Positions 45,380 to 53,113 are shown, counted from the stretch's first letter. The stretch: 64,000 nucleotides of DNA from Leptolyngbyaceae cyanobacterium M33_DOE_097 (GCA_015296075.1 DVDV01000099.1:26446-90445); one strand, 5' to 3'. Made by a program: numbers and translations. Notes: a model not told the origin generated them from the sequence alone.

Positions 45380-47144
45380 ATGGATCCTGTGTCTAATGAA
45401 CGTTTTACTCTGTCGCTTTCTGCCAATGAAATCGAGGCTCTCAGGCAAGAAGTAATTGAACTCAGACAAAAAAATGCCGATTTAGAAACCCAATTGGCAG
45501 CACTGCGACCCGAAATCCGGCAACCCACTGCGACACCACCACTACCCGATAGCGCGGCTACACTCAATTCAACGGTACAAGTACCGTCTGATTTTTTACA
45601 ACAAATTACGGATAACATTCCCCTGGCCATTTTTTGGCAAGACTGTCAGGGTGTATATTTGGGCTGCAATCAACTAGGAGCCGCGATCGCCGGGTGTCAA
45701 TCAGCCGCTGAGATTGTAGGTAAAACCGACGCAGACTTAGCGTTTTCGCGCAAGCAGATTGAGCTGTTTAATGACTTAAATCGACAGGTGTTAATCACCG
45801 GGGTGCCGCTCCATCATGCGGTGCATACCCTCGTACAACCTGACGGGCAGCAGATCTGGCTGGATGTGACAAAAGCGCCGTTGCAAAATTCAGACGGGCA
45901 AATCATTAGCATCCTAACCGCTTATGAGGAAGTGACCGAGCGTTTGATGTCACAGGTTGCGTTGCAAGACCAGTGGCAATTTTTACACCAATTGATCGAC
46001 AGTTCCCCCGACCTGATCATGGTGCAAGACTGGAGCGGACAAGTCACGCTGGCAAACCGTTCACTTGCCAGGTTTTTGGGAGCCGAGATGAAAGACCTGT
46101 TGGGGTATGGCGCTAAAAGCTTTTTTCCTGCTGGAGCATGGGAACGATTTACTGACGAAAACCAGGAAGTTATTATCTCTGGCGAAGATTTGCAGTCGCC
46201 TGAAGAAATTTGGGCGAATGCGCAGGGTAAAAGTCGCTGGCTTTGCTGGACGAAACGCGTCTTACCCCTGCCGGGTAGCGAAGAGTTGGGTGTACTCGCG
46301 ATCGCGGTTGACGTGACCAACCAGATCCAAGCAAATGCAGCCATTCGTGAGTTGAACGAGCGACTCAAAGCCGAGAATCTGCGCATGGGGGCCGAGTTAG
46401 AAGTGACGCGTCGCCTGCAACAAATGATCTTGCCCCGCGAAGAAGAGTTGGCGCAGATCACCGAGTTGGACATCGCAGGGTTTATGGAGCCTGCCACCGA
46501 GGTGGGAGGTGATTACTACGATGTGGTCTTACAGCCCAATGGCAAGGTGAGCATTGGTATTGGAGATGTGACAGGGCATGGTTTAGAAAGTGGCATGGTG
46601 ATGCTGATGGCTCAAACGGCTCTACGCACGTTACTCGCTACGAATGAAGCCGACCCGGTGAAGCGGTTAGATGTACTCAACCAAATTCTGTATACGAATT
46701 CGCGCCGCATGCAGTCAGGCAAAAGTATGACGCTGACCTTATTAGAGTACGAGGCTGGCAAGATTCGTCTGAGCGGTCAACACGAAGAGTTGATCCTGCT
46801 GCGGTTAGATGGGCAGATTGAGGTGATTGACACCTTTGACCTCGGTTTTCCCTTGGGGATTGAGTCAACGATCGCCCCCTACGTTCAGCAAATCGAAACG
46901 CCGCTTTTACCAGGTGAAGTGGCAGTGCTTTATACCGATGGGGTGACTGAAGCGATGAACGTAAACAATGAAATCTACGGAGTGACTCGGCTCCACAATG
47001 TGTTGAGGGCAAATCGGCATCGTTCTGCGCTAGAGATCCCGTCAAGCGGTTGTGACAGACATTCGCACCTACATCGCTGATCAAGAAATATTTGACGACA
47101 TTACGTTGGTTGTTATTAAACAAAAAAATAAAAATGCCTCGTAA
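45380..47144 (+). CDS. Coiled-coil/PAS/PAS-PP2C (SpoIIE/RsbU-type) Ser/Thr phosphatase. Reading frame broken by a 1-nt frameshift at about 47038-47040
   Basis: GGDYYDV, IGDVTGHG and LYTDGVTEA PP2C motifs. The track ORF stops at 47080. The +1 frame from 47037 encodes SRQAVVTDIRTYIADQEIFDDITLVVIKQKNKNAS and stops at 47142-47144, which is the expected PP2C C-terminus. Confidence 0.85.
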
Positions 47145-47752
47145 AGGATGAATGTTTCAAGAACCTTTCCGGGTTTAGATTTTCACCAAAGGTAAAGTAT
47201 TACGTGTTTACCGATACGTGTATAACGACAGTCAGGTGTCTTAAGTCATTGGGGATAGCGAGGATGTGACACTGCTCTCCTAGCCAGGGTTTCACTCCTG
47301 CACCTTGACTTAACCAGGATGACTTGGCTATGTCCAGCAGTTATGTGGATGGCAAAAAATGTGGATTGAAACAACCTAAAACGAGTTCAACACGATACTG
47401 AATTGATGAGATACAAACAGTTCGATAATTTTTAAACTGTTAAAAAACGGATGAGATCATGGCTATGAAGGGTTACTGACCCAGTACTCCTAGAGACATC
47501 AGTGGTGGCTTGGCTCGCATTGCATTTTTTCTACATAGAGTTCATCACCTTCATGAACCTCAATGTGAGTCAAAAATATTGTTCAATCAACCTATCGTGA
47601 CAGCATAGCCTGGGGCGCAATTCGCAACCTGATGGTGCGATGGCTGCTTTTCTGCTGACTATCCGCAATTCTCTTATTTCATAATCTCGTTCGACTGTTT
47701 ACTATAGATTGATTATTCCCTGTATAAGAGCAATAAGGCGTGCTCACAAACT

Positions 47753-49555
47753 GTGTCACAGCAAAACGAAAAAGAACTGATTCAACAGATCGCAGCGCTG
47801 CAACAAGAAATTGCTCACTTGCAGCGAGCCAATACTGACCTGCAACTTACGCTAGAAACCGCTGTCGAACATGGTGATGTGATTGAGGCTGAGTTACAAC
47901 AGGTCAATGCACGCTTGAAAACAGAAGTCGCCGAGCGACGGACTGCTCAGTCAACCTTGCAAGCCATTTTAGAAACGGTTAGCCGTGATAAATCTGATCT
48001 TGAAACGATTCTAAATCTCACGGTTGAGCATGGCGATACAGTTGAGTATCACCTTTACAAGCGGGCGGTTGAGGTAATGCGCCACAGTGAGGATTTGTTT
48101 CGCGCGATCGCGGAGTCGAGTCCGGTGGCGATGCTCATCAGCGAGACTCCAGTAGGGGTGATCCGCTATGCCAATGCCGCTGCTGCTGCGCTTTTAGAAG
48201 TGACCGAAAAAGATCTGATTGGGCAGCCATTAAGCACCTTTTACCACAGTCAGACCAGTCTGCAGCAAGTGCAGGCGCAATTAAGTCAGAATGGCTATCT
48301 AGAACAGTTTGAGATTGAAGGTGTAACCGCCAACCAAGAAAAGTTTTGGGCGATCGCCTCCGCCCACACGGTCATGCTGCAAAGCACACCCTCTTGGTTA
48401 ACCACCTTTTATGACATCAGCGATCGCAAGCGTATCGAAGAGGCGTTGCGGCAATCAGAGGCAAAACTGCAAGAGCAGGCCCGTCTCTTAAGAGGCATGG
48501 TCGAGTACCGCGAAGAGCAGTTGCGCCAATCAGAGGAGAAGTACCGCAGCATTTTTGAAAATGCCGTTGAGGGGATCTACCAGACCTCTCCAAACGGACG
48601 GTTTATTAATGCGAATCCGGCTTTAGCTCAGATTTATGGGTATGACTCCCCAGCGGAGTTAATGCGGGCAATTTCCGATTTAAGCAAACAACTCTACGTG
48701 CAACCGAGTCGTCGGGCAGAGTTGACTGTTTTTGTGAACCAGTTTGAGTCGGCTTCTGATATGGAGTCGCAAGTCTATCGCAAGGACGGCAGCACGATTT
48801 GGATCTCTGAAAGTATTCGAGTCGCGAAGGATGAGGCTGGCAACATCCTGTATTACGAAGGAGCCGTACGTGATGTTACCGAACACAAAAAAATGGAGGC
48901 TGAGCTACGTCAGCAACGCCTGACATCTGAACGGCTATTGCTCAATGTTTTGCCCCAAAAAGTTGCAGAACGGCTCAAACGGGGAACTCATAAGATTGCA
49001 GATCATTTCAATAAAGCAACCGTTCTCTTTGCCGACATTGTGAATTTTACGGAGCTAGCCGATACGGTTTCACCCACCGAGCTAGTAGATGTTTTAAATG
49101 AAATTTTCTCTTCGTTCGATTCCCTGGTTGATCGCTACAGCCTAGAAAAGATCAAGACGATTGGTGATGCTTATATGGTCGTGGGTGGTTTACCCCAGCC
49201 AACCCCAATTCATGTTGAGGCGATCGCTGATCTGGCTTTAGGGATGCAACAAGAAATTCGCCGCTTTCGACGACACGACGGGCAACCGTTCGCTCTTCGC
49301 ATTGGCATTCACACAGGTCCAGTAATTGCCGGGGTGATTGGGCTGAGAAAATTTGCCTATGATTTATGGGGAGATACCGTCAACGTCGCTAGCCGGATGG
49401 AAACTCATGGCGAACCTGGCAAGATTCAAGTGACTGAGGCTGTCTATAAACGCTTGAAACAAACCTATGAATTTGAGTCACGCGGCTCAGTCGTTGTCAA
49501 AGGTAAAGGCGAGATGAGTACCTACTGGCTAGTAGGCAAACGTCCCACTTTTTAA
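47753..49555 (+). CDS. Class III adenylate cyclase with two N-terminal HGD repeats and two PAS domains
   Basis: FADIVNFT, EKIKTIGDAYMVVGG (adenine-specifying Lys) and WGDTVNVASRME motifs. GTG start. Confidence 0.9.
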   Translation: MSQQNEKELIQQIAALQQEIAHLQRANTDLQLTLETAVEHGDVIEAELQQVNARLKTEVAERRTAQSTLQAILETVSRDKSDLETILNLTVEHGDTVEYHLYKRAVEVMRHSEDLFRAIAESSPVAMLISETPVGVIRYANAAAAALLEVTEKDLIGQPLSTFYHSQTSLQQVQAQLSQNGYLEQFEIEGVTANQEKFWAIASAHTVMLQSTPSWLTTFYDISDRKRIEEALRQSEAKLQEQARLLRGMVEYREEQLRQSEEKYRSIFENAVEGIYQTSPNGRFINANPALAQIYGYDSPAELMRAISDLSKQLYVQPSRRAELTVFVNQFESASDMESQVYRKDGSTIWISESIRVAKDEAGNILYYEGAVRDVTEHKKMEAELRQQRLTSERLLLNVLPQKVAERLKRGTHKIADHFNKATVLFADIVNFTELADTVSPTELVDVLNEIFSSFDSLVDRYSLEKIKTIGDAYMVVGGLPQPTPIHVEAIADLALGMQQEIRRFRRHDGQPFALRIGIHTGPVIAGVIGLRKFAYDLWGDTVNVASRMETHGEPGKIQVTEAVYKRLKQTYEFESRGSVVVKGKGEMSTYWLVGKRPTF

Positions 49556-49612
49556 GGGGAGCGATTTGAGGTTCGTGATAAACCTTTCTGCTGCTGGAGA
49601 AATAAAGACCCT

Positions 49613-50188
49613 ATGATCCAAACCTTTGGTGAGTTTATTGATCAAATGCCTCATACAGAGGAGTATCTGACTATCAGTTTCTCACCCAGCTCAAATGCTC
49701 GTAACTTACGCTGGAGCAACTATGGATTGTCGGCTGATTTTTTAGGTGATTATTTTGCCACGTTTTTTCCAGGTAGCCCTGAGCAAAAGCCGGAGCTTGA
49801 TAAACAAGACGTTGTAAAGTCTTCAGTCAGCTACATTGCGAATGAGCTATTGGAGAATGCTATTCAGCACAGTGACCTCAATTCGGAAATACCGATTCAT
49901 ATTTCGCTCTATCTGTATAACACTCGCTTAGTTTTTGTTGTTTCTAACGCGGCAACTACTTTGAAAGTTGAAAAATACAAGGAATTTATTCACCAATTAC
50001 TCAGTTCAGACGTTAACGAACTCTACACAACCCAGCTCGAAAAAACGGCTATGGGCCGGGGTGGGTCTCACATGGGACTGCTCACCATGATGAATGACTA
50101 CTCGGCCCGGTTTGGTTGGAAGTTTGAGCCGTTAGCGGCTCATCAAGAAGCTGTAAACGTCACGGTGATGGCACAACTAGATGTTTAA
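49613..50188 (+). CDS. GHKL-like protein, SiaB/RsbW-type switch kinase candidate
   Basis: 191 aa. ANELLENAIQH (N-box-like) and GRGGSHMGLLTMM (G-box-like). Positioned directly upstream of a SiaC-like gene. Confidence 0.6.
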   Translation: MIQTFGEFIDQMPHTEEYLTISFSPSSNARNLRWSNYGLSADFLGDYFATFFPGSPEQKPELDKQDVVKSSVSYIANELLENAIQHSDLNSEIPIHISLYLYNTRLVFVVSNAATTLKVEKYKEFIHQLLSSDVNELYTTQLEKTAMGRGGSHMGLLTMMNDYSARFGWKFEPLAAHQEAVNVTVMAQLDV

Positions 50189-50284
50189 AGAGTGACGATG
50201 GTATCCTGACGAAGATGTGCAACCAACCATAAAGCCCTTGCTTTAGTAAAAGCTTGTTAATTTTGATAGAGGAATCACTACTAG

Positions 50285-50626
50285 ATGGAGATCAAGACAA
50301 AAGATTACAGTGTCTGGTATGAACCTAATGAAGCGACGGTTTTCTTCAAAGGTTTTTTGCGTCTTGACGGCATGGAAGCTTACCAGCCAATCATCAATCT
50401 CTTAAATTCAGCTTCAGATGGTAGTGATGCTGTGACCCTTGATTTACAAGAGCTAGAGTTTTTAAATAGCTCTGGGATCAGTATGTTGTCGATGTTTGTG
50501 GTGGCGCTTCGCAACAAGGGTAGTGTCAATTTGATTCTAAAAGGGTCAAATAAGGTTTTGTGGCAAACCAAATCTTTGAGAAACTTGCAACGACTCATGC
50601 CAAGCATTGTCTTGGAATTGTGTTAA
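50285..50626 (+). CDS. SiaC/DUF1987-like (STAS-like) small regulatory protein
   Basis: 113 aa. TVFFKGFLRLDG..AYQPIINLL...VTLDLQELEFLNSSGISML pattern recalled for DUF1987/SiaC. Confidence 0.6.
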   Translation: MEIKTKDYSVWYEPNEATVFFKGFLRLDGMEAYQPIINLLNSASDGSDAVTLDLQELEFLNSSGISMLSMFVVALRNKGSVNLILKGSNKVLWQTKSLRNLQRLMPSIVLELC

Positions 50627-50630
50627 ACCC

Positions 50631-51656
50631 GTGGGCATAAACGTGGAACAGCTAAAGTACGCTAAAGAACAACTCATTACTGAGATTGAGTTGCTGCGTC
50701 GGCAAGTTGAACGACTAGAGCAAGAAAACCATGACTTACAAATTGCTTTAGAGACAACAGCGATTCATGGTGATTTAGTCGAATCAGAGTTGTATACCGT
50801 TAATCAAAAACTACAATCGGCGATCGCAAGCTATCAACAAAAGCAGACGATTCTTGAGTCTGTTTTGGAAAGTGTGGCGCAACAAAAGACCGATTTAGAA
50901 ATTATTTTGCATACCATGACTGAGCATGGCGACTCGGTTGAAACAGAGCTTTTTAACTTGAATCAGCGGCTTGAAGCAGAGATGCTTGAGCGCAAGAAAA
51001 CAGAAAATAAGTTGCACTCTCTAGTGAGAATTATTTCTAAAGAAAAAGATGATTTAGAAAAGATTATGCGGACGATCATTGAGCATGGAGATGCGATCGA
51101 AACGCAGTGGTATGGCAAGTTATTAGAAGCCGATCAGCTAGCTTTAATTGATGGCTTAACCCAGGTCGCCAATCGGCGTCACTTAGACAACTACCTCGCC
51201 TCTGAATGGCGACGGTTGACGCGTGAACAGCAGCCATTAGCGCTGATCTTGTGCGATGTTGATAATTTCAAGCTCTACAACGATACCTATGGCCACCAGT
51301 TGGGTGATGACTGCTTAAAACAGGTCGCTCGCGCGATCGCTTGCTCCGTCAATCGTCCGTCTGATCTGGTCGCCCGCTATGGTGGGGAAGAGTTTGCGGT
51401 CATCTTGCCCAATACCCCAATTGAAGGGGCGGTGTGTGTGGCTGAGCGCATTCGAGCCGCAATTGAGGCGTTACAAATCCTGCACGAGCGATCGCCTGTG
51501 CGCCCTCACGTCACCCTCAGTTTAGGCGTGGCAGCTTTGGTTCCTGCTGAAGCGCTGTCGCTCAAACAATTGATTGCGTTGGCTGATGATGCCCTCTACG
51601 AGGCAAAGCAAGCAGGTAAAAATCACATTCAGGTGGCGATCTCAGATGCCAACTAA
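50631..51656 (+). CDS. Diguanylate cyclase (GGDEF) with three N-terminal HGD repeats
   Basis: DGLTQVANRRHLD, RYGGEEFAV (GGEEF), and RPSD I-site 5 residues upstream. The track opens at TTG 50607; GTG 50631 lies 4 nt after the upstream stop. Confidence 0.9.
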   Translation: MGINVEQLKYAKEQLITEIELLRRQVERLEQENHDLQIALETTAIHGDLVESELYTVNQKLQSAIASYQQKQTILESVLESVAQQKTDLEIILHTMTEHGDSVETELFNLNQRLEAEMLERKKTENKLHSLVRIISKEKDDLEKIMRTIIEHGDAIETQWYGKLLEADQLALIDGLTQVANRRHLDNYLASEWRRLTREQQPLALILCDVDNFKLYNDTYGHQLGDDCLKQVARAIACSVNRPSDLVARYGGEEFAVILPNTPIEGAVCVAERIRAAIEALQILHERSPVRPHVTLSLGVAALVPAEALSLKQLIALADDALYEAKQAGKNHIQVAISDAN

Positions 51657-51811: not shown

Positions 51812-53113
51812 ATGAATATTGCCTACGAGTTACTTTTCATTTTCTTATTGATTCTTGTTAACGCCTTTTTTGCAGCCACTGAGATTGCGCTGGTGTCAGC
51901 GAGTGATGTGCGCATGAAGTTGCTGGCAGAGGAGGGGAATCGGCGTGCCTTGCTGGTACTGAATACCACCCAAAACGGTACGCGCTTTTTAGCCACAATT
52001 CAGGTGGGCATTACGCTTGCTGCGTTTTTTACCTCTGCGTTAGCGGCCACAAACCTGTCAGAGCCATTGGCAAACTGGATGCAGCCTCAGTTGGGTGGGG
52101 CGGCAAGTGTGATCGCGTTTATTCTCGTAACCAGCGTCATTTCCTTTATTAGTCTCGTGCTGGGTGAGTTAGTGCCAAAGCGATTGGCGATTCGGCACGC
52201 TGAAGACTGGGCCCTGGCATCGGTTCAGGTGATTCGCTGGCTTGGTATTTTAACGGCTCCCATCGTCAAATTGCTGAGCTTCTGCACTGATAGTGTATTG
52301 CGTTTGCTGGGCACCTCAACTGAAGAAGTTGAAGAGCGGGTTAGCTCAGAAGAAATTATGGCAATGGTCGATGCCAGTATGGCGGGTGGGGTTGTTGGAG
52401 AGCAAGAGCGGCGAATTATTCATCGAGCTGTCGAAATCAGGCATATCCCGGCGCGAGCGATTATGGTGCCCCGGGTGCAGATCCAATATCTGAAAATCAC
52501 GACCACGCTAGAAGAGGCTTACAAAGTGGTGGCGGAAAATGCCCATACGCGTCTCCCGGTCTGTGATGGCGATCTGGATAATATTGTGGGCGTGCTACAT
52601 GTAAAAGACCTGATCCGTCCGATGCCAGATCTGATGGAGCAACCCCCCAGCTTGCGTGAGCTGCTGCGCCCGGTGCGTTATGTGCCCGAAGGCAAGTTGG
52701 TGGCTGAAATGTTGGAGGAGATGAAGCGCGATCGCCTCCACATGCTGATTGTGCGCGATGAATTTGGCGGGACGGCTGGCTTAGTCACGCTGGAAGATGT
52801 GCTGGAGGAACTTGTCGGTGAAATTCGAGATGAGTACGACTTAGAAGAAGAACGGGAATTTCGCCGTATTAGTGACCACGAAGGTATTTTCAAGATTCGA
52901 GCGAGCCTTGCAGCGGTTAACAACGAACTCGATCTGGAGTTACCGCGCGACGAGGCAGCAACCTTAGCGGGCTTGTTCCTGGAGGAGCTACACCGTCCGC
53001 CTGAAGTGGGCGATCGCCTGCAAATTGATAATGTTCTGCTAGAAGTACTCGAAGATGGACAGCGGGTACGAGTTAGCCTCGCACCCCCGCCTGAAACAGA
53101 AGCCGATGCTTAA
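51812..53113 (+). CDS. Hemolysin-family protein (DUF21/CNNM TM domain, CBS pair, CorC_HlyC)
   Basis: N-terminal 4-TM DUF21 region (NAFFAATEIALVS), CBS pair, and C-terminal transporter-associated domain. Confidence 0.9.
   Translation: MNIAYELLFIFLLILVNAFFAATEIALVSASDVRMKLLAEEGNRRALLVLNTTQNGTRFLATIQVGITLAAFFTSALAATNLSEPLANWMQPQLGGAASVIAFILVTSVISFISLVLGELVPKRLAIRHAEDWALASVQVIRWLGILTAPIVKLLSFCTDSVLRLLGTSTEEVEERVSSEEIMAMVDASMAGGVVGEQERRIIHRAVEIRHIPARAIMVPRVQIQYLKITTTLEEAYKVVAENAHTRLPVCDGDLDNIVGVLHVKDLIRPMPDLMEQPPSLRELLRPVRYVPEGKLVAEMLEEMKRDRLHMLIVRDEFGGTAGLVTLEDVLEELVGEIRDEYDLEEEREFRRISDHEGIFKIRASLAAVNNELDLELPRDEAATLAGLFLEELHRPPEVGDRLQIDNVLLEVLEDGQRVRVSLAPPPETEADA

What the first reader, a model, noticed from the sequence alone, without database searches (positions are those of the whole stretch)
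45380..51656. SiaA/B/C/D-like partner-switch locus with two different nucleotide cyclases flanking the kinase/SiaC-like pair
All genes are on the same strand, in this order: PAS-PAS-PP2C phosphatase (45380-47144), a ~600-nt AT-rich gap, and a class III adenylate cyclase (47753-49555). After a 57-nt gap comes a 191-aa GHKL-like protein (ELLENAIQH, GGSHMGLLTMM). After a 96-nt gap comes a 113-aa SiaC/DUF1987-like protein. Its NSSG loop at nt 50465-50476 resembles the phosphorylatable DSSG loop of STAS anti-anti-sigma factors. After a 4-nt gap comes a GGDEF cyclase (GGEEF with an RPSD I-site). Established knowledge: in Pseudomonas aeruginosa, SiaA (PP2C), SiaB (kinase), SiaC (DUF1987) and SiaD (DGC) form a partner switch in which unphosphorylated SiaC activates SiaD. 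Here the switch pair sits between a cAMP-forming and a c-di-GMP-forming enzyme, and both share the same unusual N-terminal repeat. The inference is that one phospho-switch could gate two second messengers. I do not know of a characterised dual-output version.
Basis: partly seen in the sequence, partly recalled or inferred. Interest (0 to 1): 0.8.

Follow-up and report, generated by a model that had tools for sequence, protein, structure and literature searches.

The report
Partner switch flanked by two nucleotide cyclases
A cyanobacterial gene cluster encodes a phosphatase, a kinase-like protein and a small phospho-switch protein next to a cAMP-making and a c-di-GMP-making enzyme that share a previously unannotated 53-residue 'HGD' repeat, and the same arrangement recurs across cyanobacteria, which suggests that one switch controls several signalling enzymes through a common docking module.

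Summary
The 191-aa and 113-aa proteins belong to NCBIfam's slr1658 and slr1659 families. They are not Pfam SiaC or NCBIfam SiaB members (scores below cut-off). Their AlphaFold models nevertheless hit SiaB and SiaC first in the PDB. The 113-aa protein has an invariant LEFLN-S62-SG loop that mirrors SiaC's LLYLN-T68-SS phosphosite.

The shared N-terminal repeat is real: 53 residues, motif DL..L.T..EHGD, two copies in the adenylate cyclase and three in the diguanylate cyclase. No Pfam or NCBIfam model passes its cut-off there.

In 80 loci, slr1659 is adjacent to slr1658 in 79, and a PP2C is nearby in 56. All 85 HGD-repeat ORFs lie within 6.5 kb of slr1658. Sixteen loci carry both an HGD-GGDEF and an HGD-cyclase. 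HGD repeats also precede hybrid histidine kinases and a PP2C, and HGD-GGDEF-slr1658 fusions exist. All four HGD proteins looked up independently had the pair, or a remnant or one member of it, next door.

Most likely this is a SiaABCD-like partner switch with modular HGD-tagged outputs. It is a new variant of a known kind. No biochemistry exists, and kinase competence is uncertain because an invariant Asn replaces the G1-box Asp.

The parts
45380..47080 (+). PAS-PAS-PP2C (SpoIIE-type) phosphatase ORF as it stands (566 aa). It is truncated by a frameshift before the C-terminal DDIT motif.
   Evidence: SpoIIE 1e-30, PAS_4 4e-23. The motifs GGDYYD 46505-46522, GDVTGHG 46562-46582 and YTDGVTE 46931-46951 are located.
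47038..47040 (+). CCC run holding the +1 frameshift. Deleting one C restores the frame.
   Evidence: The corrected C-terminus EIRQAVVTDIRTYIADQEIFDDITLVVIKQ aligns with the L084 orthologue EIRQAVIADVYQHIGEQRIFDDLTLVVIKQ. L001 and L002 have the identical sequence.
47041..47144 (+). Out-of-frame C-terminal remnant of the PP2C gene, including FDDITLVV.
47145..47752 (.). AT-richer intergenic gap (GC about 0.41-0.43). No feature was identified in it.
   Evidence: composition. (no Rfam match). (no + strand promoter-like site in the gap). (not conserved with the L084 gap).
47753..49555 (+). HGD2-PAS-PAS class III adenylate cyclase (600 aa).
   Evidence: The canonical catalytic residues, read directly from the sequence, are FADIVNFT 49028-49051, KTIGDAYM 49154-49177 and YDLWGDTVNVASRME 49358-49402.
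47795..48112 (+). Two tandem 53-aa HGD repeats of the cyclase (47795-47953 and 47954-48112).
   Evidence: domain E-values 4e-17 and 7e-18 with the repeat HMM.
49613..50188 (+). slr1658-family protein (191 aa) with a GHKL/SiaB-like fold. It is the candidate Ser kinase of the switch.
   Evidence: NF052618, 246.8 bits against a cut-off of 200. (pLDDT 80). (top hit SiaB 6kko_A, E 1.5e-4). The N-box is at 49844-49870, the G1-equivalent VVSNAAT at 49937-49957, the G2-like stretch at 50060-50092 and the family-specific WSNYGLSADFLGDYFATFFPG at 49712-49774.
50285..50626 (+). slr1659-family STAS/SiaC-fold protein (113 aa), the predicted phospho-switch.
   Evidence: NF047705, 153 bits against a cut-off of 100. 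(pLDDT 88.6). (top hits SiaC 7e6g_F, 6kkp and 6k4f, then STAS antagonists).
50465..50476 (+). The N61-S62-S63-G64 loop at the N-terminus of helix alpha2. S62 is the predicted phosphorylation site.
   Evidence: Invariant in 44 homologues. Helix 63-78 in the model. Parallel to SiaC N67-T68-S69 (PMC7647112, PMC8457831).
50631..51656 (+). HGD3-GGDEF diguanylate cyclase (341 aa from GTG 50631; an upstream in-frame TTG at 50607 would overlap the 113-aa gene).
   Evidence: GGEEF is at 51381-51395 and the RPSD I-site at 51354-51365.
50691..51167 (+). Three tandem 53-aa HGD repeats of the DGC (50691-50849, 50850-51008, 51009-51167). The last one runs directly into the GGDEF domain (..DGLTQ).

Best explanation
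The locus is a cyanobacterial, SiaABCD-like partner-switching module built on the slr1658/slr1659 pair.

Proposed mechanism:
1. The PAS-PAS-PP2C phosphatase is the sensory input.
2. The 191-aa slr1658-family protein (GHKL/SiaB fold) phosphorylates the 113-aa slr1659-family protein (STAS/SiaC fold) on S62. S62 lies in the invariant LEFLN-S-SG loop at the start of helix alpha2.
3. The PP2C removes that phosphate.
4. The unphosphorylated 113-aa protein docks on the tandem 53-residue HGD repeats. These form the coiled-coil N-terminal stalks of both the adenylate cyclase (two repeats) and the diguanylate cyclase (three repeats), and docking changes the activity of these dimeric enzymes. Phosphorylation abolishes docking.
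5. One phosphorylation state therefore sets both cAMP and c-di-GMP synthesis.

What is shown here: the gene content and order; family membership; fold similarity; the conserved phospho-loop; the existence and specificity of the HGD repeat; its near-exclusive genomic linkage to the pair; and fusions to slr1658.

What is inferred: kinase activity, the phosphosite, which partner binds the HGD stalk, and the sign of regulation (activation or inhibition, and whether it is the same for both cyclases).

In this particular genome the PP2C gene is frameshifted. If the frameshift is real, the switch would be biased towards the phosphorylated state.
For: Family and fold:
- NCBIfam slr1658 (246.8 bits) and slr1659 (153 bits) both pass their cut-offs.
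- The AlphaFold models have pLDDT 88.6 and 80.0.
- The top Foldseek PDB hits are SiaC (7e6g_F, E 5e-4, TM 0.71) and SiaB (6kko_A, E 1.5e-4), followed by SpoIIAA/RsbV and SpoIIAB/RsbW/UsfX.

Phospho-loop:
- N61-S62-S63-G64 is invariant in 44 homologues and precedes helix 63-78.
- SiaC is phosphorylated at T68 in LLYLNTSSIK, at the N-terminus of alpha2 (PMC7647112).
- SiaC N67, T68 and S69 contact the SiaD stalk, and pT68 blocks binding (PMC8457831).

Precedent for tandem stalk motifs: four SiaC molecules bind two conserved tandem motifs on the dimeric SiaD stalk (PMC8457831).

HGD repeat:
- It has a 53-aa period with invariant D14-L15, H25 and D27 and a 3.5-3.6-residue hydrophobic periodicity.
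- No Pfam or NCBIfam model passes its cut-off on it, and no PDB sequence match was found.
- It matches only 249 cluster representatives among 1.84 billion.

Linkage:
- In 80 loci, slr1659 is adjacent in 79, a PP2C is nearby in 56, an HGD-GGDEF in 40, an HGD-cyclase in 38 and both in 16.
- All 85 HGD ORFs lie within 6.5 kb of slr1658.
- 38 of 39 cyclase ORFs and 40 of 52 GGDEF ORFs in these loci carry HGD.
- Unbiased neighbour clustering finds no other conserved gene and no sigma factor.

Reverse test: all four HGD proteins chosen from the representative search have slr1658 and/or slr1659, or an IS-disrupted remnant, next to them.

Fusions: HGD2-GGDEF-slr1658 fusions occur in 7 cluster representatives. 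Each of the two looked up is followed by a 113-114-aa slr1659-like gene (Pfam STAS_2 hit on the L091 one, no Pfam hit on record for the L092 one) and then a PP2C.

A relative with 78% identity keeps the same five-gene order in a different genomic context.

The conserved PP2C implies a phosphorylation cycle, and slr1658 is the only kinase-like gene in the module. The Glu (E78) and Asn (N82) of the N-box are invariant.
Against: - No experiment supports any step.
- The canonical G1 box (DxGxG) of GHKL kinases is replaced by x-N-x-x with an invariant Asn (N112), even in distant and fused members. ATP binding and kinase activity are therefore not assured. UsfX, a protein of the same fold that (from my own knowledge) does not phosphorylate its antagonists, is among the fold hits.
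- Sequence-level similarity to SiaB and SiaC is not significant.
- Foldseek E-values are modest, and SiaC is barely separated from ordinary STAS antagonists.
- The slr1658 fusions to the DGC and one locus without slr1659 (L089, a short contig) fit at least as well a model in which slr1658, not slr1659, contacts the effector.
- In the cyclase the HGD repeats are separated from the catalytic domain by two PAS domains, so transmission is less direct than in SiaD.
- 13 of 80 loci show no HGD neighbour, although some of those contigs are short.
- The PP2C here is frameshifted.
Confidence: 0.55

Rival explanations
1. Rsb-type topology. The slr1658-like protein itself binds the HGD-bearing enzymes and holds them inactive, as an anti-sigma factor holds sigma. 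Unphosphorylated slr1659 is the antagonist that pulls slr1658 off. The HGD repeat, or the catalytic dimer, is the slr1658 docking site, and slr1659 never touches the cyclases.
For: - Natural HGD2-GGDEF-slr1658 fusions occur in 7 cluster representatives, with slr1659 and PP2C as separate genes.
- Locus L089 has PP2C, slr1658 and an HGD-GGDEF with no slr1659 in between.
- slr1658 carries an invariant, family-specific N-terminal motif, W..NYGLSADFLGDYF..FFPG, in a low-confidence, probably flexible region. It could be a docking element.
- The degenerate G1 box suggests a binding role rather than a catalytic one.
- The fold also matches the sigma-binding SpoIIAB, RsbW and UsfX.
Against: - The slr1659 loop mirrors the SiaC residues (N67, T68, S69) that contact the SiaD stalk (PMC8457831).
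- The top fold hit for slr1659 is SiaC taken from the SiaC-SiaD complex.
- In the Sia system no SiaB-SiaD interaction was found (PMC7278518).
- A fusion of kinase to effector is equally explained by local phosphorylation of a stalk-bound activator.
Confidence: 0.25
2. A classical anti-sigma / anti-anti-sigma pair that controls an unlinked sigma factor or other transcription regulator. The cyclases and the PP2C are merely co-transcribed signalling genes, and the HGD repeat is only a dimerising coiled coil.
For: [quoted passage not shown]
- The folds match SpoIIAB/RsbW and SpoIIAA/RsbV.
Against: - No sigma-factor gene, nor any other conserved gene, lies in the neighbourhood across 80 loci.
- HGD repeats are rare (249 representatives in 1.84 billion) yet are found next to the pair in every case examined.
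- Covalent fusions of slr1658 to an HGD-GGDEF exist.
- Transcriptional effects can be downstream of c-di-GMP or cAMP.
Confidence: 0.07
3. The HGD repeat is a sensory element in its own right, for example a metal-, pH- or ligand-binding site formed by the E-H-G-D..E cluster in a coiled coil. The slr1658/slr1659/PP2C genes act on something else, or on the catalytic domains. Co-localisation reflects a shared pathway rather than docking on the repeat.
For: - The invariant residues are potential ligands (H25, D27, with E24 and E30 mostly conserved) around a small residue (G26) at a predicted core position.
- The Synechocystis slr1658 phenotype concerns recovery from iron limitation (PMC7555055).
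- Coiled-coil metal sensors of DGCs are known. The Zn-dependent DgcZ is cited in PMC8457831.
Against: - A purely sensory repeat would not be expected to occur almost only next to one particular STAS/GHKL pair.
- Nor would it be expected to be grafted onto four different output enzymes always together with that pair.
- The polar notch is equally what a docking site for a Ser/Thr loop looks like. In SiaD, S82 and Q86 receive SiaC T68 (PMC8457831).
Confidence: 0.08

Closest known systems
SiaA/SiaB/SiaC/SiaD of Pseudomonas aeruginosa (PP2C phosphatase, GHKL-type Thr kinase, DUF1987 phosphoprotein, diguanylate cyclase)
   Same: - Four-part logic and one-operon organisation.
- The best PDB fold matches of the two small proteins are SiaB and SiaC.
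- The loop (F/Y)-L-N-(S/T)-S sits at the start of helix alpha2.
- The effector is a GGDEF enzyme with an N-terminal helical stalk that carries tandem conserved motifs (PMC8457831).
- The effector has an I-site.
   Different: - No significant sequence similarity: SiaC Pfam 13.3 against 24.5 bits, SiaB NCBIfam 16.7 against 85, SiaA 28.9 against 700, SiaD 150.8 against 290.
- The phosphatase is a soluble PAS-PAS-PP2C rather than a membrane HAMP-PP2C.
- The stalk motif is a 53-aa HGD repeat, not the 32-residue-spaced S/Q motifs of SiaD.
- The G1 Asp is replaced by an invariant Asn.
- Outputs include a class III adenylate cyclase and, elsewhere, hybrid histidine kinases and a PP2C. Two outputs often sit in one locus.
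Slr1657-Slr1658-Slr1659 of Synechocystis sp. PCC 6803
   Same: The 191-aa and 113-aa proteins are members of the NCBIfam families named after Slr1658 and Slr1659. A Synechocystis MAG has PAS-PP2C | HGD2-GGDEF | slr1658 | slr1659 (L039). A 2023 review lists Slr1657 as 'XXX-GGDEF', that is, with an unassigned N-terminal region (PMC10124867).
   Different: Only a phenotype is published in what I could read. [quoted passage not shown] I found no published link to partner switching, to Slr1657, to cAMP or to the repeat. The Synechocystis-type locus seen here has one output (DGC), whereas the window has two.
Other partner switches that act on diguanylate cyclases: HsbR-HsbA-HsbD (P. aeruginosa) and BgrU/V/W-BgrR (Sinorhizobium meliloti)
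   Same: A STAS protein whose phosphorylation is set by a GHKL kinase and a PP2C phosphatase controls c-di-GMP synthesis rather than, or in addition to, a sigma factor. HsbR-HsbA is described in PMC6482189. BgrUVW is cited in the reference list of bioRxiv 10.64898/2026.04.08.717354. The HsbD link comes from my own knowledge.
   Different: Those systems use canonical STAS and HATPase_c_2 proteins. I know of no shared repeat on the effector, and none is known to control an adenylate cyclase or two enzymes at once.
SpoIIAA/SpoIIAB/SpoIIE and RsbV/RsbW/RsbU partner switches of Bacillus
   Same: The folds of both small proteins match. The phosphatase is a SpoIIE-type PP2C. The phosphorylatable Ser sits in an x-S-S-G loop, as in DSSG.
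   Different: No sigma factor is linked. The proteins fall below the Pfam STAS and HATPase_c cut-offs. The neighbours are nucleotide cyclases and kinases with HGD stalks.

Membership tests
slr1658 family / superfamily (NCBIfam NF052618, NF047703) | Score above the curated cut-off over the full length | tested here: met
   246.8 bits (cut-off 200) and 217.1 bits (cut-off 100), covering residues 3-191.
slr1659 superfamily (NCBIfam NF047705) | Score above the curated cut-off over the full length | tested here: met
   153 bits (cut-off 100), residues 1-109. 1163 homologues found, with invariant LEFLNSSGIS and LWQTKSL.NLQRLMP.
SiaC / DUF1987 (Pfam PF09345) | Sequence match above the gathering score | tested here: not met
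   13.3 bits against 24.5, E 0.068. Only 15 of 44 family members reach E <= 0.1. The profile search of the PDB did not retrieve SiaC.
SiaC / DUF1987 (Pfam PF09345) | SiaC fold with a phosphorylatable Thr/Ser after a conserved Asn at the N-terminus of alpha2 | tested here: met
   Top Foldseek hits are 7e6g_F, 6kkp and 6k4f with TM 0.68-0.71. N61-S62-S63 precedes helix 63-78, compared with N67-T68-S69 in SiaC (PMC7647112). The fold does not separate SiaC from STAS.
STAS domain (Pfam PF01740) anti-sigma-factor antagonists | Sequence match above the gathering score | tested here: not met
   21.1 bits against 22.6 for the window protein. All 44 homologues give weak STAS hits, best E 6e-5. This is borderline: a superfamily relative, not a Pfam member.
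SiaB family protein kinase (NCBIfam NF038262) | Score above the curated cut-off | tested here: not met
   16.7 bits against 85. At fold level SiaB 6kko_A is the best PDB match.
GHKL (Bergerat-fold) protein kinases of the RsbW/SpoIIAB type | N-box with a catalytic Glu and a Mg-binding Asn (E-x3-N) | tested here: met
   ANE78LLEN82A is invariant in 42 homologues and in distant and fused members. The motif assignment follows established GHKL knowledge.
GHKL (Bergerat-fold) protein kinases of the RsbW/SpoIIAB type | G1 box DxGxG, whose Asp contacts adenine | tested here: not met
   The strand-end position holds an invariant Asn (VVSN112AAT) with no Gly-rich box, in all members examined. The position was assigned from secondary structure and motif order, not from a structural superposition.
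GHKL (Bergerat-fold) protein kinases of the RsbW/SpoIIAB type | ATP-dependent phosphorylation of the partner STAS protein | not testable with these tools
   This needs an in vitro kinase assay.
SiaABCD-type partner switch (system level) | Conserved linkage of a PP2C, a GHKL-fold protein, a STAS/SiaC-fold protein and a GGDEF enzyme | tested here: met
   In 80 loci, slr1659 is adjacent in 79, a PP2C is nearby in 56 and an HGD-GGDEF in 40. Of the five-gene relatives and the fusion loci, L084-L086 and L090 were scanned with my own HMMs; L091 and L092 rest on the Pfam gene tables.
SiaABCD-type partner switch (system level) | The unphosphorylated switch protein binds tandem motifs on the effector stalk and activates it | not testable with these tools
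   Only indirect support: tandem HGD repeats are exclusive to neighbours of the pair.
Class III adenylate cyclase (Pfam PF00211) | Catalytic domain above cut-off with the metal Asp pair, the Lys/Asp substrate pair and the Asn/Arg transition-state residues | tested here: met
   229.3 bits. FADIVNFT, KTIGDAYM and YDLWGDTVNVASRME were read directly. Residue roles come from established knowledge of class III cyclases.
GGDEF diguanylate cyclase (Pfam PF00990) | Domain above cut-off with an intact GG(D/E)EF A-site and an RxxD I-site | tested here: met
   183.9 bits. GGEEF and RPSD are separated by 5 residues.
SiaA and SiaD equivalogs (NCBIfam NF038263, NF038266) | Score above the curated cut-off | tested here: not met
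   SiaA 28.9 against 700; SiaD 150.8 against 290.

The most novel reading that the evidence does not exclude
A single small phospho-switch protein (slr1659 family) acts as a universal adaptor for a portable 53-residue 'HGD' docking repeat. Evolution has grafted that repeat onto the stalks of at least four kinds of signalling enzymes, at least three of which work as dimers: diguanylate cyclase, class III adenylate cyclase, hybrid histidine kinase and PP2C phosphatase. In loci like this one, a single PAS-PP2C sensor would therefore set cAMP and c-di-GMP synthesis together. Elsewhere it would set c-di-GMP together with a His-Asp phosphorelay. That would make this the first partner switch known to control an adenylate cyclase and the first with a recognisable, transferable effector tag. 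It would also supply the missing signalling chain for the Synechocystis slr1658 phenotype (pgr5 de-repression, recovery from iron starvation).
Probability: 0.4. Interest if true: 0.85.

Novelty: new variant of a known kind. Interest (0 to 1): 0.72.

Why it matters
Partner switches were first known as sigma-factor regulators. A few, such as SiaABCD, are now known to switch a diguanylate cyclase directly. If the reading here holds, four things follow.

1. Cyanobacteria carry a widespread relative of that system. More than 564 species-level genomes hold an slr1658 relative.
2. The effectors are marked by a distinctive, previously unannotated repeat. Targets of the switch can therefore be predicted from sequence alone.
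3. The switch reaches beyond c-di-GMP to cAMP and to two-component phosphorelays, giving a concrete mechanism for coordinating two second messengers.
4. An orphan regulator of photosynthetic electron-flow genes in the model organism Synechocystis (slr1658) gains a testable pathway through the neighbouring DGC Slr1657.

All four points can be tested with standard biochemistry and existing mutants.

Tried and rejected
- **Sequence route to SiaB/SiaC.** Pfam, NCBIfam and profile searches of PDB sequences gave nothing significant. I therefore do not file the proteins as SiaB or SiaC family members.
- **Similarity of the HGD region to the SiaD stalk or any solved structure.** Only coiled-coil noise turned up (prefoldin and lamins, E >= 0.1). 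phmmer aligned SiaD only over the GGDEF domain.
- **Word-index homologue search with 79 HGD repeats.** I replaced it with the exhaustive representative search using the five window repeats.
- **A regulatory RNA or conserved element in the roughly 600-nt gap.** There was no Rfam match at E <= 1, no + strand promoter-like site in the gap and no conservation with the equivalent gap of the 78%-identity relative.
- **A linked sigma factor or other conserved neighbour.** Unbiased clustering of all neighbouring ORFs found none.
- **The frameshift as an artefact of this window only.** It is present in the JGI and ENA assemblies as well. These may derive from the same reads, so a sequencing or assembly error cannot be excluded.
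- **Structure of the HGD stalk and of complexes.** Not attempted. The two structure-prediction jobs went to the two small proteins, and no multimer tool is offered.
- **The Zer et al. 2018 paper on Slr1658.** It is not held in the library. Its content is cited only through papers that quote it.

Full report
**1. The observation**

- A PAS-PAS-PP2C protein (SpoIIE domain 1e-30).
- A PAS-PAS class III cyclase at 47753-49555 (Guanylate_cyc 3e-68).
- A 191-aa protein at 49613-50188.
- A 113-aa protein at 50285-50626.
- A GGDEF protein (2e-54).

The quoted strings and coordinates are correct: ELLENAIQH, GGSHMGLLTMM, NSSG at 50465-50476, GGEEF, the RPSD I-site, and the 57-, 96- and 4-nt gaps. The 4-nt gap assumes the GTG start at 50631 that gene callers use. 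The gap after the PP2C gene has GC 0.41-0.43 against about 0.50 in the genes.

One thing was missed. The PP2C ORF stops at 47080.
- Removing one C from the CCC run at 47038-47040 restores EIRQAVVTDIRTYIADQEIFDDITLVVIKQ. This aligns residue for residue with the C-terminus of the intact 717-aa orthologue in a related genome (L084).
- The frameshift is present in the JGI and ENA assemblies of the same organism, named Leptolyngbyaceae cyanobacterium M33_DOE_097 by NCBI. I cannot tell whether these assemblies are independent.
- If the frameshift is real, the truncated product lacks the C-terminal DDxT segment of the PP2C domain. By general knowledge of PP2C enzymes that segment contributes a metal-binding Asp.

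**2. What the two small proteins are**

By curated HMMs they are members of the families NCBI names after Synechocystis Slr1658 and Slr1659: 246.8 bits against a cut-off of 200, and 153 bits against 100.

They are not members of the Sia families.
- Pfam SiaC (DUF1987) scores 13.3 bits against 24.5.
- NCBIfam SiaB scores 16.7 bits against 85.
- STAS (21.1 against 22.6), HATPase_c (21.3 against 26.4) and DUF6272 (25.2 against 26.6) all fall just below their cut-offs.
- Across 44 and 42 homologues the weak STAS and DUF6272 signals are universal, while the SiaC signal appears in 15 of 44.
- Profile searches of PDB sequences found nothing significant.

At fold level the picture is clear.
- AlphaFold models built from the family alignments are confident (pLDDT 88.6 and 80.0).
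- The best PDB matches of the 113-aa model are SiaC chains (7e6g_F, E 5e-4, TM 0.71; also 6kkp and 6k4f). They are closely followed by anti-sigma antagonists such as 4qtp, RsbV and SpoIIAA.
- The best match of the 191-aa model is SiaB from the SiaB-SiaC complex (6kko_A, E 1.5e-4), followed by SpoIIAB, UsfX and RsbW.

The 113-aa family has an invariant LEFLN-S-S-G-I-S segment that ends the central strand and opens helix alpha2.
- SiaC is phosphorylated on T68 in the peptide LLYLNTSSIK, also at the N-terminus of alpha2 (PMC7647112).
- SiaC N67, T68 and S69 are the residues that insert between the SiaD stalk helices (PMC8457831).
- S62 is therefore the predicted phosphosite.

The 191-aa family keeps the GHKL N-box (ANE78LLEN82A, invariant) and a G2-like S-x-(L/M)-G-(L/F)-x-T-M. 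The position of the G1-box Asp holds an invariant Asn (N112) with no Gly-rich box, even in very distant and fused members. Kinase competence is therefore plausible but unproven.

**3. The shared repeat**

Both cyclases begin with tandem copies of a 53-residue unit, two in the adenylate cyclase and three in the DGC.
- Over 176 copies from related loci the consensus is L..EV..L....xDLEI.L.TT.EHGD.IE.QL...N..L. L1, D14-L15, H25 and D27 are invariant, and G26 is present in 81%.
- Hydrophobic residues follow a 3-4 spacing, with a periodicity peak at 3.5-3.6 residues. I read this as a continuous coiled-coil stalk in which the small G26 falls on a core position flanked by H and D. This is an inference from sequence. 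No structure was predicted.
- The last DGC repeat runs straight into the GGDEF domain.
- No Pfam or NCBIfam model passes its cut-off in this region, and no solved structure resembles it by sequence.
- A profile of the five window copies finds only 249 cluster representatives at E <= 0.001 among 1.84 billion proteins.
- Of 103 of these, 54 carry GGDEF, 10 carry a class III cyclase domain, 22 carry HisKA plus HATPase_c (13 with a receiver domain), and 3 carry DUF6272.
- With my own HMMs I found HGD2-GGDEF-slr1658 fusions in seven representatives and one HGD2-PAS-PP2C.

**4. Linkage**

A scan of one genome per species found at least 564 genomes with an slr1658 relative. I analysed the 80 best loci, 1.23 Mb in total. 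They are essentially cyanobacterial, with three or four apparently mis-binned or unplaced contigs. HMMs were run on six-frame ORFs.
- slr1659 follows slr1658 in 79 of 80 loci.
- A PP2C is nearby in 56 of 80.
- An HGD-GGDEF is nearby in 40, an HGD-cyclase in 38, both in 16, and any HGD protein in 67.
- Among the 49 loci with at least 5 kb on each side, the figures are 39 with a PP2C, 12 with both outputs, and 42 with any HGD protein.
- All 85 HGD ORFs lie within 6.5 kb of slr1658.
- 38 of 39 cyclase ORFs and 40 of 52 GGDEF ORFs in these loci carry the repeat.
- The commonest dual layout is PP2C | HGD2-GGDEF | slr1658 | slr1659 | HGD2-PAS-cyclase.
- The window has PP2C | HGD2-PAS-PAS-cyclase | slr1658 | slr1659 | HGD3-GGDEF. 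A relative with 78% identity shares this order in a different genomic context.
- HGD proteins without a cyclase or GGDEF domain that sit next to the pair are hybrid histidine kinases (L040 and L044).
- Unbiased clustering of all neighbouring ORFs shows no other conserved gene and no sigma factor.

I also ran the reverse test, starting from HGD proteins found without reference to slr1658. It gave four of four.
- An HGD hybrid kinase has the pair directly upstream (L087).
- A second HGD kinase has an slr1659 remnant separated from it by an IS605 insertion (L088).
- A six-repeat GGDEF protein is preceded by PP2C and slr1658 (L089).
- An HGD-PAS-PP2C is preceded by HAMP-PP2C, slr1658 and slr1659 (L090).

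Both fusion proteins I looked up are followed by a 113-114-aa slr1659-like gene and then a PP2C, in contexts that do not look cyanobacterial. The L091 gene has a Pfam STAS_2 hit, and the L092 gene has no Pfam hit on record.

Exceptions exist. One is L010, where the pair sits beside era and a phytochrome-GGDEF-EAL gene with no HGD neighbour.

**5. Mechanism**

The best-supported reading is a Sia-type partner switch.
- The PAS-PP2C dephosphorylates S62 of the slr1659-like protein, and the slr1658-like protein phosphorylates it.
- The unphosphorylated form binds the tandem HGD motifs on the dimeric stalks of the effectors, as four SiaC molecules bind two tandem conserved motifs on the SiaD stalk dimer and so activate it. 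Phosphorylation blocks that binding (PMC8457831, PMC7278518).
- Because both enzymes in this locus carry the same motif, a single phosphorylation state would act on cAMP and c-di-GMP synthesis together.
- The acidic and histidine-rich notch (E-H-G-D..E) would be expected to repel a phospho-serine. That point is my inference.

Shown here: gene content, families, folds, the conserved loop, the repeat, its linkage, and the fusions.

Inferred: kinase activity, the phosphosite, the binding partner of the repeat, and the sign of regulation.

Rivals:
- The main rival keeps the same parts but uses the Bacillus wiring. There slr1658 holds the effectors and slr1659 releases them. The slr1658-DGC fusions, the invariant slr1658 N-terminal motif and the degenerate G1 box speak for it.
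- Less likely, the pair controls an unlinked sigma factor. The strong transcriptional phenotype of slr1658 mutants (PMC6525291) could suggest that, but nothing in the neighbourhoods supports it.
- Also less likely, the repeat is itself a metal or ligand sensor.

**6. Comparison with what is known, and novelty**

The system works like SiaABCD but fails the sequence membership tests for all four Sia families. It belongs to the slr1658/slr1659 families.
- For these families the literature I could search gives only a phenotype and states that the signalling chain is unknown (PMC7555055, PMC6525291).
- A 2023 review lists the neighbouring Slr1657 as 'XXX-GGDEF' (PMC10124867).
- Searches for slr1657-1660, DUF6272, 'SiaB-like' / 'SiaC-like', and partner switching in cyanobacteria found no description of this module, of the repeat, or of a partner switch acting on an adenylate cyclase. 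The library is incomplete, so prior description elsewhere cannot be excluded.

I rate it a new variant of a known kind. The logic is known, with new families, a new effector tag and new output classes.

**7. Verdict**

Its errors are the missed frameshift and the DUF1987 label. Interest is 0.72. Everything mechanistic still needs biochemistry.

Noticed in passing
window 47038-47040 (PP2C gene 45380-47144): A +1 frameshift in a CCC run truncates the PP2C 31 residues before its normal end and removes the DDIT motif. The same sequence is in the JGI and ENA assemblies. It could be a real pseudogenisation of the input phosphatase or a shared assembly error.
   Followed up: partly
window 45440-45496: The N-terminus of the PP2C (LRQEVIELRQKNADLETQL) resembles the first half of the HGD repeat (LRQEV..L....xDLE..L) but lacks the T..EHGD part. 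Elsewhere a PP2C with two full HGD repeats exists (P0375 in L090).
   Followed up: partly
L091 5001-6587 and L092 5001-6437 (also P0297, P0320, P0326, P0366, P0386): Single polypeptides fuse HGD repeats, a GGDEF domain and an slr1658-like domain. In both loci looked up, the fusion gene is followed by a 113-114-aa slr1659-like gene (STAS_2 hit in L091 only) and a PP2C. The flanking genes (Mur ligase, EF-P, Maf, MCP-CZB) suggest non-cyanobacterial hosts.
   Followed up: partly
L088 1539-3144: An IS605-type OrfB transposase gene sits between a truncated slr1659-like gene and an HGD hybrid histidine kinase. This is apparently an insertion that broke the module.
   Followed up: no
L040 4434-7992; L044 4235-5929; L087 8001-11120: HGD repeats lead into hybrid histidine kinases (HisKA-HATPase_c-REC) next to the slr1658/slr1659 pair. 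L040 pairs an HGD-GGDEF with an HGD kinase, a different kind of dual output.
   Followed up: partly
window 49712-49774: An invariant, family-specific motif (W.NYGLSADFLGDYFA.FFPG) lies in the N-terminal part of the slr1658-like protein, in a low-confidence (pLDDT about 50-65) stretch of the model. Its role is unknown. It may be a docking segment.
   Followed up: no
L010 5866-10992 (Phormidium sp. R1S1), also L020 and L030: In the Phormidium and Floridaenema loci L010, L020 and L030 the pair has no HGD neighbour. It sits downstream of a large GGDEF protein without HGD, which in L010 (the only one scanned with Pfam) is a phytochrome-GAF-GGDEF-EAL protein followed by era. The HGD effector, if any, must lie elsewhere in the genome.
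   Followed up: partly
window 47145-47752: The roughly 600-nt AT-richer gap upstream of the cyclase gene has no Rfam match and no ORF of 80 aa or more, and it is not conserved with the 425-nt gap of the 78%-identity relative. Relatives such as L004 and L005 have PP2C directly followed by slr1658, so the cyclase gene may be a later insertion into a four-gene module.
   Followed up: partly
window 51812-53113 and downstream to about 60000: The neighbours are unrelated housekeeping or envelope genes: a CNNM/CorC transporter, a peroxiredoxin, DUF928, a POTRA/ShlB protein and the RuBisCO large subunit (from the L001 gene table). The related cassette in L084 sits in a wholly different context next to transposase genes, so the module moves as a unit.
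   Followed up: no
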